DNA from: Octopus vulgaris
Lineage: Eukaryota
Reading direction: 5' to 3'
Assembly: GCA_951406725.2 (NCBI GenBank)
Contig: OX597817.1
Location: 57,102,001-57,166,000, forward strand
Length of the DNA: 64,000 nucleotides
The notes under the pieces were generated by a model that saw only the letters and a list, made by a program, of their open reading frames with translations, had not been told where the DNA came from and searched no databases. Position numbers and translations under genes: made by a program. This document shows positions 16,674 to 32,934 of the stretch, piece by piece; the first letter of the stretch is position 1, and every line of letters begins with the position of its first letter.

Positions 16674-16715
16674 CTGCTTTCCGGAGTCCGGACCGAGAAT
16701 AGTGAGGGATGCGTG
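16674..16715 (-). CDS. Patronin: CAMSAP/patronin 42-nt small exon ([S/A]RIPHYSRSGLRKA)
   Basis: Acceptor tctatcttcctacag, donor cag/gtttgt (same donor type as 52469 and 50908), phase 1->1, open and CpG-rich unlike flanks. Confidence 0.7.
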
Positions 16716-18687
16716 CTGTAGGAAGATAGATAGAATGACACACTAATGCTGGCAGCAAAACAGCCACTTAGTCTAAACATATCTGGGAACCTGGATTTTA
16801 GTTCACATTCACTTCACAATAAAACAAAATAAAGCAAAGTTTTTTTTTTTTTTAAATAAACATACATACATACACACACGAGAAAAAAAAACACAGCAAT
16901 CAGGCAATAAAAATAAAAATTATAAAAATAAAATTATAATCAAATTAAATCAAAATATTTTTTTATATTTATTACTCTGAGGAATATGGACAAGTCTGTG
17001 TCCATATTGTCAAAGACTAAAACAATAAATAAATAAAAAGAAGCAACAACATTTAAACTGCCAAATATAAAAAAAAGACTTGTTAATTAAACAGTTTTCC
17101 TCCATAAACTTGTGCTACACAGTATTAATTAGTCAGTCTTAAGGGTTGTCTTAATTAGTCGGTCTTGCTCACCTGTGTCACTTTGAGAGTGTGGCGGTTA
17201 TCTCCCCTAACTTCACCTACGTAACAGCATCACCTTCCGTGTGTGTGTGTGTGTGTGTGTGTGTGTGTGTGTGTGTGTGTGTGTGTGTGTGTGTGTGCTG
17301 CCTCTCAGTTACTACCATTCATTCACTGCCTGTGTGCGTATTGGGAGGTAGTTGATCTAGTTTAAGTTCCAAAAATGTGTAGGTGTGGAGGGGGGCAAAA
17401 TTTTATCACATTTTTGTGCTATTTTCACCAAAAACTAGCGACCATCAAATTTGAAAGACTTTTACCAATTGCTTAAATTATGACTGAAATGATCACCAAC
17501 CCCTTAAATCATTGCTGAAAGACACACCAACCCCTTAATTCTTCACAGACTGACAATTCTTTTGATACCCACCCATTTGAGACAGTTTTAAAGTAATCTA
17601 AATTAAAATCTCCAACCAAAATTTTGTGTTAATTTTGTTTCCAGGCACCAGATTAATAAAGAAAAAATATTTTTAAAATTTAATTCTTCATCATTTTAAA
17701 AATTAATCAAAACAAAAGTAGTGTTGTCAGGAGACATGATAAGAAAATGATTAAATGACCCCTGCAAAATGACACCTCGACCCCCTAAATTTTCACTGAA
17801 AAAACACCTCCAAACTCCATAAACCATCCCTGAAAGATTCCCCCACTCAAACCTCTACATCGTGTGATAGCTTGAAGTTCTCTCCAACAGGGCAACATAA
17901 CACAGAACCTGATGAAATGACATGAAACAGACTGCTTACAACTCCAGAGCACTAAACAGAGATGCCTTTTACACAAAAGGCATTCATTAATCCAGTCTTG
18001 CAAACAGAATTAATTAATAAACCACTTATTTTAGACTAACAAAAACTTAATATTTGTAAACATAGAACAGAAAACTACAACTAAAATAATCATAGACTCT
18101 TAGCGAACCATTAGAGCTTCACTGTGAACTGTGGGACACATTAGCTATTAACTACAGAAGACTGACAATTGATGGAGAAATAAACAATTCACTTGAGGAC
18201 CATCTTCGTAAACTAGAGACTTCTTTCAAAAGAGGGCAGCAGTAGATAAAGGTGGGAGGACAACGGTAGATAAACATTGAGTGGGGTAGTAACAGGGGTT
18301 AAAAGAAGATAGCATTGGGGTAAGGAGGGGGGAAAATGAGTCGTAATATTGGGCAAAACGTAGGTAAAAGGGGAACAGGGGCAGTCGAACAAGGAGCAGT
18401 GGAGGGTAAAAATTAAAAGACTAAAAAAATGCGGACTATGTATCTTGATGGGTTTTATCACATGCAAACATAAGGCAGTGCTAGATATAACATACATCGT
18501 CAGTGTGTGTGTGTGTGTGTGTGTGTGTGTTTATGAATGAATGCATGCATGTATATGTGAGTGTGATCATTACACCATTTCTAATTCCCTAACAGACACA
18601 AAGCAACATAAATAGGAAAAAAAAAGACACTAAAAACTTAATATATGTATATATATATACAGGTTTCAAGAAGTGAGATAACTGTAC

Positions 18688-18720
18688 CTCTGGCTGGTGC
18701 TGGGCTGGATAGGCTTATCC
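18688..18720 (-). CDS. Patronin: CAMSAP/patronin 33-nt microexon (WISLSSPAPAR)
   Basis: Long pyrimidine tract tttcttttctccatttcatctgttgcttag, donor gag/gtacag, phase 1->1, open. Confidence 0.6.
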
Positions 18721-19539
18721 CTAAGCAACAGATGAAATGGAGAAAAGAAAGAAACAAGTAGACAACACCATGAAGATTATTATTATTATTATTATTAGGG
18801 AACAAATTTATCCACATTATACAAGAGGGCAGATAAGGGAAGTAACAAAAGTGTAGAAAATTAAACAGGTAAATTAATTAGCAAAGGCAGAATAGGTAAC
18901 AAAAAAAAAAAGCTTAAAGGGTCGGTCTAATAGAGAAAGGCAGCAGAATAGAAGCGTAGTGTGAGCAATGAACACATAGAAAGCAAGGCTGATATCAGTG
19001 GCTAAGGGTCGGGGGACAGACTTACCAGCTCAAGCAAAACAAAAGTTAAATTACGAACCAGAATTTAGGGGTTAAAAATAAATATATAGATATATATATA
19101 TGTATATATATGTATATAGAAGAGCTACTTTACCAAAGTTCCAACACAACTAGTATCCAAAACTAAAACCATTTTCTGTGCAGACAATATGCAGATATAT
19201 ATATATATATATATATAAATATATATGTATGTATATACACACATATATATATATATGTAAAGCCGTTGATAAACTAACAAGTTTTTGCATTGCTCAGAAA
19301 TGGAAAGCTAACTTTTTTTTTTTAATTAATTTTTTTTATTTAGAAATAAAAAGAGACAAAACCAAATGAAAAATGAGGCTGTGCAAAATATATTGTAAAT
19401 ATTCAATGGAAGGAGTTTGTTAACCAGAGGTGTCCAGATTATCAGGCTAGGTTTGGTTAATAACATAACACAGGTGTAATATAGACTAGAAGGGTTAACA
19501 ATGGAGTGGGATTATCAGGATTAATATATTTGATACATT

Positions 19540-30783: not shown

Positions 30784-31344
30784 GTGTGTGTGTGTGTATA
30801 TATATATATATATATATGCACACACACACACACACAGAGGCACTAGAGTTAAATTACATCTTCTGAGCACATATTTAAATATAGACACGCCCACACAGAA
30901 AGACAAAAGGGACAGAAACAGATATCATATTTATATATAATAATAATATATGCATACAAAAACAAATCATATATGTGATGACGCACTAGCATGACAAAGT
31001 GGACTAATTGAGTTTTCTTATTCAGAGGAATCCCACAATGGGCCATTAGCTCCCAACAGGCATTGAGTGGAGATATGGAAGTCATGATAGTCAAGGTTTT
31101 TTTCCCCCCGAGAATCATTAGTGGTGTAAATCAAAGATCAGTTACAACAGAGTGTCAAAACATGCCCCAGAATCAATCTGCTGCTACTTTGAACTAAATC
31201 ACTTGCCCCACTCTCAATAAATAGACCTTCTGTGTATGATAATGACTTTACTTCATAGCTACATTGACATAGCCTCAGTGTTTGTGTGTGCATATGTGAC
31301 CCTGGGCAATGTTCTTTTCCTAAAACAATATGAAGTACTCAATA

Positions 31345-31728
31345 TGTCGTGGCACTCTGTCAGTTATGACGATGAGGGTTCTAGTTAATCCAATCAACAG
31401 AACAGCCTGCTTGTGAATTTAATGTGCAAATGGCAGAGTGTACCACAGACACGTGTACCCTTAACGTAGTTCTCGGGGAGATTCAGCATGACACAGAGTG
31501 TAACAAGGCTGGCCTTTTGAAATACAGGTACATCAGAAACAGGAAGAAAGAATGAAAGTTGTGGTAAAAGAGTACAGCAGGGTTCACCACTACCCCCTGC
31601 CGGAGCTTTATGGAGCTTTAAGTGTTTTCGTTCAATAAACACAATGCCCATGCCCAGTCTGGGAATCGAAACTGTGATTCTACGACCGCGAGTCTGCTGT
31701 CCTAACCACTGGGCCATTGCGCCTCCAC
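31345..31728. mobile_element. Composite of two SINE parts: plus-strand SINE body (~31345-31530) and minus-strand tRNA(Arg)-like SINE head (~31540-31728)
   Basis: Minus gtggaggcgcaatggcccagtggttagg...gactcgcgg...gtttcgattcc matches 44152-44465; body also seen at ~13050-13168. Confidence 0.7.
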
Positions 31729-32638
31729 AATCAATATATACATGAGTGGTGTCTTGTGCGTGTTTAGTAAGTGGTTATACCCAAAGCATGGTTTCCTGTT
31801 CGTGTCCAAGATAGGGCTTTTCTAGACACTCTTAAGTAGGGTCTTTCTAGATGCCATCACTACATCCAAATACCTGCACACGAGTGAAATCATGGTGCAG
31901 ATGTGACAATAACTATTTAACACTTGTGTGTATGCATGTGTTTGCATATACACACACTCTCTCCTAAATCTGAGTAGTCACATCCCTCCTTTTACATTCT
32001 GTGATCATGCAAGCTGCACAATAGACTCTCAAGTGCCATCGGCACAAGAAAAGCACCCAATACTCACTGTAAAGTGGTTGGTGTTAGGAAGGGCATCTGA
32101 CCATAGGAACCATACCAAAGCAGACATCGATCGATACTTGATGCAGTCCTTGGACCCAGGGGATCCTAATAAACCATCCAACCCATGACAGCACAGAAAA
32201 TGGATATTAAATGATGATATCTCACACACATACATTTATAAAGAATTAGAACTTGATTATGGAACCCATATTACTCCATGTGCAAATCACAGTAAAATTT
32301 AAAGTTTAATTAGCAATGCAAATTGTCAAAACGAAAATACAACATCTATGATAAACAAATTTACCCTGAAATCTCCAAAAAGCCTTAAAACTCAGGTGAT
32401 GCTTTTAAATTATTCTAATAATGCTAACTTGATAAGAGTTACACAGTGTAAACCATTAGAGATGGTAGTTTAGTCAAATTAAGAGTCATTAACACTTAAA
32501 GCTCAGAGGAAAACTGAAAAACTGTCATTTTTTTTTTTAATTATAAAGCAAAAAACACAACTGAAATATTAGAGAAAATATAAGTCCAAAAGAATATAAT
32601 TAATTAATTAATAAGTTAAGGTATGAACTGTTACTTAC

Positions 32639-32934
32639 AGTTACTGTTTGAACTAGTAGGACTGCTGAATCCTCGCCCTGCAATGTCTTCCTGTGAACTT
32701 GTCGAATGAATACTACTAGCATCATCTTCACCAACCTCGGGAGGTTTCGATGAACGCACTATCATGCTCTTTGGACGTGGTTTGGGATTCCGAGCTGGAC
32801 GCTCGTAACGATCAGTTGGTGGATTCTTTTCGTCGTCTTCCTCCTTTCTCTTCCGTTCCTTATATTGTTGCAGAATCATCTGCCTGCGCGCCTTTTCTTG
32901 CTCTTTCCTCTGAGCTATTTCTTCCTTCTTCAAC
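32639..32934 (-). CDS. Patronin: CAMSAP/patronin exon, CC3 second half and basic linker (LKKEEIAQRKEQEKARRQMILQQYKERK...KPRPKS...)
   Basis: Acceptor ttctag, donor gtaagt, 296 nt, phase 2->1; RR..I...Y..RK and KPRPKS motifs of CAMSAPs. Confidence 0.93.

What the first reader, a model, noticed from the sequence alone, without database searches (positions are those of the whole stretch)
16674..32639. Splice-junction-encoded SxIP motif that a 33-nt microexon would switch off
Seen: the exon ending at 32639 leaves a T. Spliced directly to the 42-nt exon (ca cgc atc cct) it gives ...SSPTSSNSN-SRIP-HYSRSGLRK, an SxIP in a Ser/Arg-rich, acid-free context. If the 33-nt microexon (18688-18720, ends in G) is included, the codon becomes GCA and the motif reads ARIP. 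Established: SxIP motifs bind EB proteins at growing microtubule ends. TGCATG elements lie downstream of the microexon (18544-18549, 18461-18466) and a TGC sits in its pyrimidine tract, as in neural microexons. Inference: splicing toggles EB binding of a minus-end protein.
Basis: inference. Interest (0 to 1): 0.7.

Follow-up and report, generated by a model that had tools for sequence, protein, structure and literature searches.

The report
Splicing-built kinase motif in octopus Patronin
An optional 42-base exon in the octopus gene for the microtubule minus-end protein CAMSAP/Patronin spells an SRIP motif at one splice junction, but the motif kept across molluscs is at its other junction, a likely kinase site that would let splicing decide whether this protein can be phosphorylated there.

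Summary
The coordinates and translations are right. The gene is octopus CAMSAP/Patronin. SxIP is not kept across molluscs (3 of 22 groups, two lineages; P about 0.07 under a composition null). What is kept is the 3' junction of S: [LMI]-R-K-A|V-S-x-x-x-L, present in 11 of 11 inclusion isoforms and 0 of 11 skip isoforms, resembling an AMPK/MARK/SIK site. A like motif occurs in 28 of 77 fresh CAMSAP linkers (shuffles 9.8) and is optional in turtle CAMSAP2 and, in a looser form, crayfish Patronin. Best reading: splicing installs a basic, likely phosphorylatable linker motif; EB binding is a possible coleoid add-on. No binding, phosphorylation or tissue pattern was shown.

The parts
32639..32934 (-). 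Exon E1, in all cephalopod linker sequences seen: end of last coiled coil, KPRPKS motif, Ser-rich linker; ends in phase 1 with T
   Evidence: 99% match to O. vulgaris CAMSAP model
25868..25966 (-). Cassette K, 99 nt, phase 1-1, AAG acceptor, ends in a tri-Cys patch; Octopus only in these data
   Evidence: in 7 of 14 O. vulgaris/sinensis linker sequences, 0 of 8 Sepia
18688..18720 (-). Cassette M, 33 nt, phase 1-1 (ISLSSPAPAR); converts SRIP to ARIP when joined to S
   Evidence: 7 of 14 O. vulgaris/sinensis sequences (none with S); joined to S in O. bimaculoides P0223
18544..18549 (-). TGCATG (RBFOX-type element; label recalled) 139 nt downstream of M
18461..18466 (-). Second TGCATG, 222 nt downstream of M
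16674..16715 (-). Cassette S, 42 nt, phase 1-1, net charge +4; 5' junction makes SRIP (with E1), 3' junction supplies L-R-K-A-V to the Ser of exon A; orthologous cassette across molluscs
10622..10693 (-). Exon A, 72 nt: carries the invariant Ser and the +4 Leu of the kinase-like motif; ends RRPPSP
9320..9391 (-). Cassette B, 72 nt, look-alike tandem copy of exon A without the equivalent Ser; optional in Octopus and Sepia
3047..3130 (-). Exon C, 84 nt, linker just before CKK
192..2371 (-). Two CKK-domain exons (approximate tblastn limits 2371-2246 and 365-192); the gene runs off the window

Best explanation
The 42-nt exon is an optional, strongly basic cassette in the CAMSAP/Patronin linker before the CKK domain, and its inclusion completes the motif [LMI]-R-K-A-V-S-x-x-x-L across its 3' junction, a likely phosphorylation site for an AMPK-related kinase (MARK/Par-1, SIK, BRSK type) that would tune how the protein sits on microtubules. 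Shown: the cassette is optional in 11 mollusc genera and the motif appears only on inclusion. Inferred: that the Ser is phosphorylated, by which kinase, and that the unphosphorylated basic patch adds lattice affinity which phosphorylation removes. The SRIP at the 5' junction is a coleoid feature riding on the same exon; M (and K) would remove SRIP while leaving the kinase-like motif intact, so in Octopus the two motifs could be uncoupled, but this is a lineage-specific and apparently uncommon form.
For: Paired isoforms: motif in 11 of 11 inclusion forms, 0 of 11 skip forms; inserts 14-24 aa, net charge +4 to +7. In one inclusion form from each of 22 mollusc groups, positions -5 to +4 are nearly invariant (hydrophobic 22/22, R 21/22, K 21/22, S 22/22 as anchor, L 21/22) while positions -20 to -6 vary freely (2.3-3.1 bits); the pattern hits 41 of 5194 Ser in those proteins, 22 of them this site. 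Published consensus LxB(S/T)xSxxxL and HDAC4/5 sites PLRKTA-S-EPNL (PMC8057676, passages). Out-of-sample: 28 of 77 usable linkers from a fresh profile search carry the pattern versus 9.8 +/- 2.8 in shuffles (0 of 1000 reach 28; most hits 47-88 residues before CKK, as in molluscs at 50-59) while only 3 of 77 carry a context-passing SxIP. Optional forms elsewhere: 9-aa insert in turtle CAMSAP2 makes LYRVFSVSSL, 8-aa insert in fish makes RPRVFSVSSL; two products of one crayfish gene differ by an insert ending KKYRSTGNL, and 9 of 24 arthropod-type linkers have [RK][RK]xxSxxxL. MARK2 phosphorylates human CAMSAP2 (at S835; PMC12058119 section 7); how Par-1 excludes Shot/Patronin is stated as unknown (PMC9117655, passages).
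Against: No phosphorylation data for this Ser. Position -2 is Ala, not the S/T of the SIK consensus, and +2 is not Pro, so the 14-3-3 SxP rule is not met. A(-2) and V(-1) may be held by the splice donor (..CAG|GT) rather than by a kinase. The motif was picked after seeing the mollusc sequences, and related species are not independent counts; 50 of 127 sequences were dropped for lack of a usable linker, and 15 of 24 arthropod-type and all three named annelid linkers lack the site at this place or in this form. The known MARK2 site in CAMSAP2 is elsewhere and said to be mammal- and CAMSAP2-specific. Register relative to the splice junction differs between molluscs and vertebrates, so the cassettes are not shown to be homologous. 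Isoform evidence is from gene models and four full-length Logan proteins, not from reads laid here.
Confidence: 0.5

Rival explanations
1. One reading: in coleoid cephalopods E1-S splicing gives CAMSAP a working SxIP that binds EB proteins, linking it to growing ends; skipping S, or putting M or K before it, removes the motif.
For: SRIP passes the context test, one of 12 such sites in 42,323 residues of 22 mollusc CAMSAPs and the only one in the Octopus and Sepia proteins; identical in Octopus and Sepia; SRLP in the Patella cassette; the related SRLP of myomegalin binds EB1 (PMC5626540); the genome has an EB gene with the EBH-domain exon; an SxIP exon with kinase sites is optional in Clasp1 (PMC6373834, passages); ARIP exists in one model.
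Against: Absent in 19 of 22 mollusc groups with the cassette; two lineages is within chance for such basic, Pro-rich peptides (expected 0.44, P>=2 about 0.07); 9 other context-passing sites occur scattered in these proteins; the Octopus-Sepia linker is highly alike throughout, so shared SRIP is weak evidence; human CAMSAP2 does not bind EBs directly; ARIP in 1 of 24 sequences.
Confidence: 0.2
2. The cassette is only a basic patch that raises electrostatic binding of the CKK-proximal linker to the tubulin tails; the R-K-A-V-S-x-N-x-L stretch is a direct contact or docking motif, not a kinase site.
For: All 11 inserts are net +4 to +7 with no net acid; conservation of +1 (C/M 22/22), +2 (N 19/22) and +3 exceeds what a kinase consensus needs.
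Against: Hydrophobic -5 and +4 spacing around an invariant Ser recurs in unrelated linker sequences of vertebrate and arthropod type, which pure charge does not predict.
Confidence: 0.2
3. The cassettes are near-neutral splicing variation in a disordered linker, and both motifs are chance products of composition and splice-site constraints.
For: K and M are Octopus-only here; linker cassettes turn over quickly (Mya, Ruditapes and Mactra have another unrelated one); the splice donor can explain two of the conserved positions.
Against: The S-type cassette is present in cephalopods, gastropods and bivalves and optional in 11 genera, with R and K in 21 of 22 groups. This rival fits M and K better than S.
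Confidence: 0.1

Closest known systems
CAMSAP/Patronin family (Pfam CH_CAMSAP2_N, CAMSAP_CH, CAMSAP_CC1, CAMSAP_CKK)
   Same: All four domains over cut-off in isoform P0006; the cassettes and both junctions are already in NCBI isoform models.
   Different: No paper found in searches describes an SxIP or a splicing-built kinase motif in the CC3-CKK linker; reported CAMSAP3 splicing affects the CH domain and exon 13 (PMC3828766, passages).
Clasp1 optional exon carrying the second SxIP and GSK3 sites (PMC6373834)
   Same: A small optional exon in a microtubule regulator brings an SxIP together with kinase sites.
   Different: There the motifs lie inside the exon of a proven +TIP; here both motifs are completed across junctions, in a minus-end protein, and neither is tested.
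AMPK-related kinase sites, e.g. HDAC4 Ser246 / HDAC5 Ser259 (PMC8057676)
   Same: L-R-K at -5 to -3 and Leu at +4.
   Different: Ala rather than S/T at -2; no Pro at +2, so not an SxP 14-3-3 site; phosphorylation not shown.
MARK2 phosphorylation of CAMSAP2 S835 (PMC12058119)
   Same: A MARK kinase acts directly on a CAMSAP.
   Different: Different region (mid-protein), described as conserved in mammals and specific to CAMSAP2, not splicing-controlled.
SRRM3/4-dependent neural microexons
   Same: M is short, frame-preserving, with a UGC near the acceptor.
   Different: 33 nt is in the 28-51 nt class, not 3-27 nt (PMC12626424, passages); not seen outside Octopus; neural inclusion untested.

Membership tests
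CAMSAP/Patronin | CH, CC1 and C-terminal CKK domains | tested here: met
   four Pfam families over curated cut-offs
SxIP-type EB ligand (+TIP) | [ST]-x-[IL]-P core | tested here: met
   SRIP in E1+S only, 1 of 8 exon combinations
SxIP-type EB ligand (+TIP) | No acidic residue in the nine-residue context, a basic residue nearby | tested here: met
   (my coding of the rule as summarised in PMC4834103; the original paper was not read)
SxIP-type EB ligand (+TIP) | Motif conserved in orthologues | tested here: inconclusive
   Octopus, Sepia, Patella only: 3 of 22 groups; P about 0.07 against composition null
SxIP-type EB ligand (+TIP) | Binds the EB homology domain and tracks growing ends | not testable with these tools
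   needs pull-down or TIRF assay
AMPK-related kinase substrate site | Hydrophobic -5, basic -3 (or -4), hydrophobic +4 | tested here: met
   22 of 22 inclusion forms; 11 of 11 vs 0 of 11 in paired isoforms
AMPK-related kinase substrate site | S/T at -2 (SIK consensus LxB(S/T)xSxxxL) | tested here: not met
   Ala 21 of 22, Pro 1 of 22
AMPK-related kinase substrate site | SxP for 14-3-3 binding | tested here: not met
   +2 is N 19, H 2, Q 1 of 22
AMPK-related kinase substrate site | Phosphorylated by such a kinase | not testable with these tools
   needs kinase assay or phosphoproteomics
SRRM3/4 neural microexon (exon M) | Length 3-27 nt | tested here: not met
   33 nt
SRRM3/4 neural microexon (exon M) | UGC between branch point and AG | tested here: inconclusive
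   present, but in 48 of 194 decoy acceptors too; found in most, not all, such exons (10.1101/2024.09.17.613571, passages)
SRRM3/4 neural microexon (exon M) | Neural-specific inclusion | not testable with these tools
   no tissue-labelled reads available
SRRM3/4 neural microexon (exon M) | Deep conservation | tested here: not met
   Octopus only; 0 of 8 Sepia, 0 of 1 Argonauta linker sequences; genomic DNA of those species not searched

The most novel reading that the evidence does not exclude
CAMSAP/Patronin proteins across bilaterians carry a Par-1/MARK-family phosphosite in the CC3-CKK linker that is switched by alternative splicing in molluscs (built across a junction), arthropods and vertebrate CAMSAP2 (24/27-nt microexon), giving the missing direct link by which Par-1 controls Patronin; in coleoids the same exon also adds a working SxIP, which the 33-nt exon can remove on its own, so one minus-end protein comes in EB-binding, kinase-sensitive and insensitive forms.
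Probability: 0.2. Interest if true: 0.75.

Novelty: new variant of a known kind. Interest (0 to 1): 0.48.

Why it matters
How polarity kinases act on Patronin is stated as open (PMC9117655). The comparison points to one Ser in the linker before CKK whose kinase-like context is conserved and repeatedly made optional by splicing, which gives a concrete residue and isoform pair to test in fly, fish or mammalian cells as well as in octopus.

Tried and rejected
Reads: no RNA holder listed on record. The one lay that ran (four runs of contigs on the 42-nt exon and flanks) laid nothing; this is no evidence on expression, so junction use by tissue stays open. Complex prediction of the octopus EBH exon dimer with a 36-residue SRIP peptide: no answer. 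Search for short cephalopod proteins over the linker returned 3 hits only. Strict mutual exclusion of M and S was my first reading and was dropped when P0223 showed M+S and Ruditapes X1 showed two stacked cassettes. A second SxLP in the constitutive part (SGLP) fails the context test. A loose x-[ILV]-P near the cassette's start in gastropods (LRIP, LHIP, FRLP, LRVP) is not SxIP; calcineurin- or MAPK-docking readings (recalled) were not tested. Papers sought by id and not held: SxIP substitution scan, AMPK consensus paper, SxIP review, so whether Ser-to-Ala abolishes EB binding was not checked in print. Earlier scan findings: none. Source data of PMC12058119 listing other MARK2 sites were not read and may bear on the kinase claim.
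Full report
Observation. The window holds most of a minus-strand CAMSAP/Patronin gene of an octopus: the 98-aa exon at 32933-32640 matches an Octopus vulgaris model at 99%, and isoform P0006 has the CH_N, CH, CC1 and CKK families over cut-off. Joining exons in a script gives SRIP in 1 of 8 combinations of K, M and S (E1+S+A only) and ARIP whenever M or K precedes S.

Anatomy. Between E1 and the CKK exons lie K (25966-25868, 99 nt), M (18720-18688, 33 nt), S (16715-16674, 42 nt), A (10693-10622), B (9391-9320) and C (3130-3047), all multiples of three and phase 1. 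Among cephalopod sequences fetched (15 of 23 members of the Octopus cluster could be listed, the same 15 twice; 13 of 13 Sepia; 1 Argonauta; 2 O. bimaculoides), 24 cover the linker: O. vulgaris/sinensis K 2, K+M 5, M 2, S 3, skip 2; O. bimaculoides M+S 1; Sepia S 2, skip 6; Argonauta skip 1 (7 sequences without the linker left out). So SRIP is in 5 of 24, ARIP in 1 of 24, and 18 of 24 lack S. These are isoform lists, not abundances. One SRIP protein (P0028, 1862 aa on a 7.8-kb Logan contig, Sepia cluster) can only come from a spliced transcript (inference from lengths). The single ARIP model, P0223, starts in the intron 5' of M (its N-terminus matches the read-through frame), so it is truncated or a short isoform; whether its junction has read support I could not see. 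By length order of the O. sinensis isoform numbers, at most one unlisted isoform could be M+S (inference).

Regulatory signs at M. Two TGCATG lie within 300 nt downstream; 103 of 6370 windows have two or more. Single copies also lie shortly after B, C and a CKK exon. The UGC in the acceptor is shared by 48 of 194 decoy acceptors. M at 33 nt is outside the 3-27 nt class (PMC12626424, passages). Neural inclusion is possible but unshown.

Comparison across molluscs. The S cassette has orthologues ending in [LMI]RKA before V-S in gastropods and bivalves, and a variant in a chiton. In 11 genera with both forms the insert is 14-24 aa with net charge +4 to +7. SxIP/SxLP occurs in it in Octopus, Sepia and Patella only, 3 of 22 groups; a pooled-composition null expects 0.44 in 21 lineages, P of two or more about 0.07. 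Nine further context-passing SxIP sites are scattered through the same 22 proteins. By contrast the ten residues across the 3' junction are nearly fixed while the rest of the cassette varies, and the pattern hydrophobic(-5), basic(-4/-3), Ser, hydrophobic(+4) is present in 11 of 11 inclusion and 0 of 11 skip isoforms. M, K and the second bivalve cassette do not create it. The pairs were chosen by me after seeing the sequences.

What the motif looks like. [quoted passage not shown] The mollusc site meets -5, -3 and +4, fails S/T at -2 and lacks the +2 Pro of 14-3-3 sites. As a fresh test I took 127 new proteins from a profile search, dropped 50 without a usable linker, and found the pattern in 28 of 77 against 9.8 +/- 2.8 in shuffles (0 of 1000 reach 28); context-passing SxIP in 3 of 77; the exact mollusc RKAVS in 0 of 77. 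These proteins are unnamed and related to one another; my reading of them as vertebrate CAMSAP1/3 or insect Patronin types is from resemblance and recall. In the 78 usable non-mollusc hits, 16 have the pattern, 14 of them near-identical turtle CAMSAP2 isoforms. Named examples of optional forms: turtle CAMSAP2 with and without a 9-aa insert, fish with and without an 8-aa insert (absent from all 9 bat sequences), and two products of one Cherax gene differing by an insert that ends KKYRSTGNL; 9 of 24 arthropod-type linkers carry [RK][RK]xxSxxxL before RRAPSP and 15 do not. Homology of these cassettes is not shown; the register to the junction differs.

Mechanism. Shown: splicing of S adds a basic patch and completes a conserved Ser-centred motif; in coleoids it also makes SRIP if joined to E1. 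Inferred: the Ser is a site for an AMPK-related kinase such as Par-1/MARK, and phosphorylation offsets the basic patch next to CKK, so that only S-containing isoforms respond to the kinase (confidence 0.5). Rivals: a working EB ligand in coleoids (0.2), a plain electrostatic or docking patch (0.2), neutral variation (0.1, best for K and M). The first two rivals can coexist with the main reading.

Known work. Purified CAMSAP2 does not bind EBs; EBs link CAMSAP2-decorated ends to the Golgi through the SRLP of myomegalin (PMC5626540, passages). MARK2 phosphorylates CAMSAP2 at S835, a different region (PMC12058119, passages and section 7). Whether Par-1 acts directly on Shot/Patronin is open (PMC9117655, passages). 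An optional SxIP-plus-GSK3 exon is known in Clasp1 (PMC6373834, passages); BPAG1 tail splicing does not alter EB binding (PMC4171495, passages). Search listings 16, 17, 24, 30, 39, 45, 49 and 54 showed no title or abstract start on an SxIP, microexon or splicing-made phosphosite in the CAMSAP linker; most listed papers were not opened and the library lacks most subscription journals.

Verdict. The exons are already in public gene models; the reading of the 3' junction as a conserved, splicing-built kinase-type motif is new as far as these searches reach, and untested. New variant of a known kind; interest 0.48.

Noticed in passing
window 25966-25868 (-): Cassette K ends in three Cys followed by Lys, a possible lipid-modification patch (label recalled); AAG acceptor; seen only in Octopus isoforms (7 of 14), not in 8 Sepia linkers.
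   Followed up: partly
window 10693-10622 and 9391-9320 (-): Exons A and B look like tandem duplicates (72 nt, phase 1, both end RRPPSP); B is optional in Octopus and Sepia, lacks the Ser and has TGCATG 25 nt downstream. Gigantopelta has a shorter optional duplicate of the same end.
   Followed up: partly
window 18826-18688 (-); P0223: The O. bimaculoides model starts in the intron upstream of M; the same open frame exists here. Model truncation or a short CKK-only isoform.
   Followed up: partly
P0111/P0114, P0094/P0234, P0132/P0250: Vertebrate CAMSAP2 has an optional 24/27-nt-sized insert at a comparable linker position that creates R-x-x-S-x-x-x-L; no hit on it in one search.
   Followed up: partly
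P0080/P0090 and unnamed arthropod-type proteins: Optional insert ending in [RK][RK]xxSxxxL before the RRAPSP motif (9 of 24 linkers).
   Followed up: partly
window 54534-52453 (-): Large exon holds about a dozen 7-aa tandem repeats (RHEAVPI type), with copy number differing between Octopus models and Argonauta.
   Followed up: no
window about 19500-21800: About 2.3 kb of (TA)n-type simple repeat in the intron between K and M.
   Followed up: no
window about 51334-50906 (-): O. vulgaris isoforms of 1809, 1815 and 1839 aa and Sepia isoform pairs differ by about 87 aa upstream of the linker, pointing to a further splice choice near this exon; not mapped.
   Followed up: no
window 1352-1867 (+): 172-aa open frame resembling a retrotransposon reverse-transcriptase tail (recalled, not searched) inside a CKK intron.
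   Followed up: no
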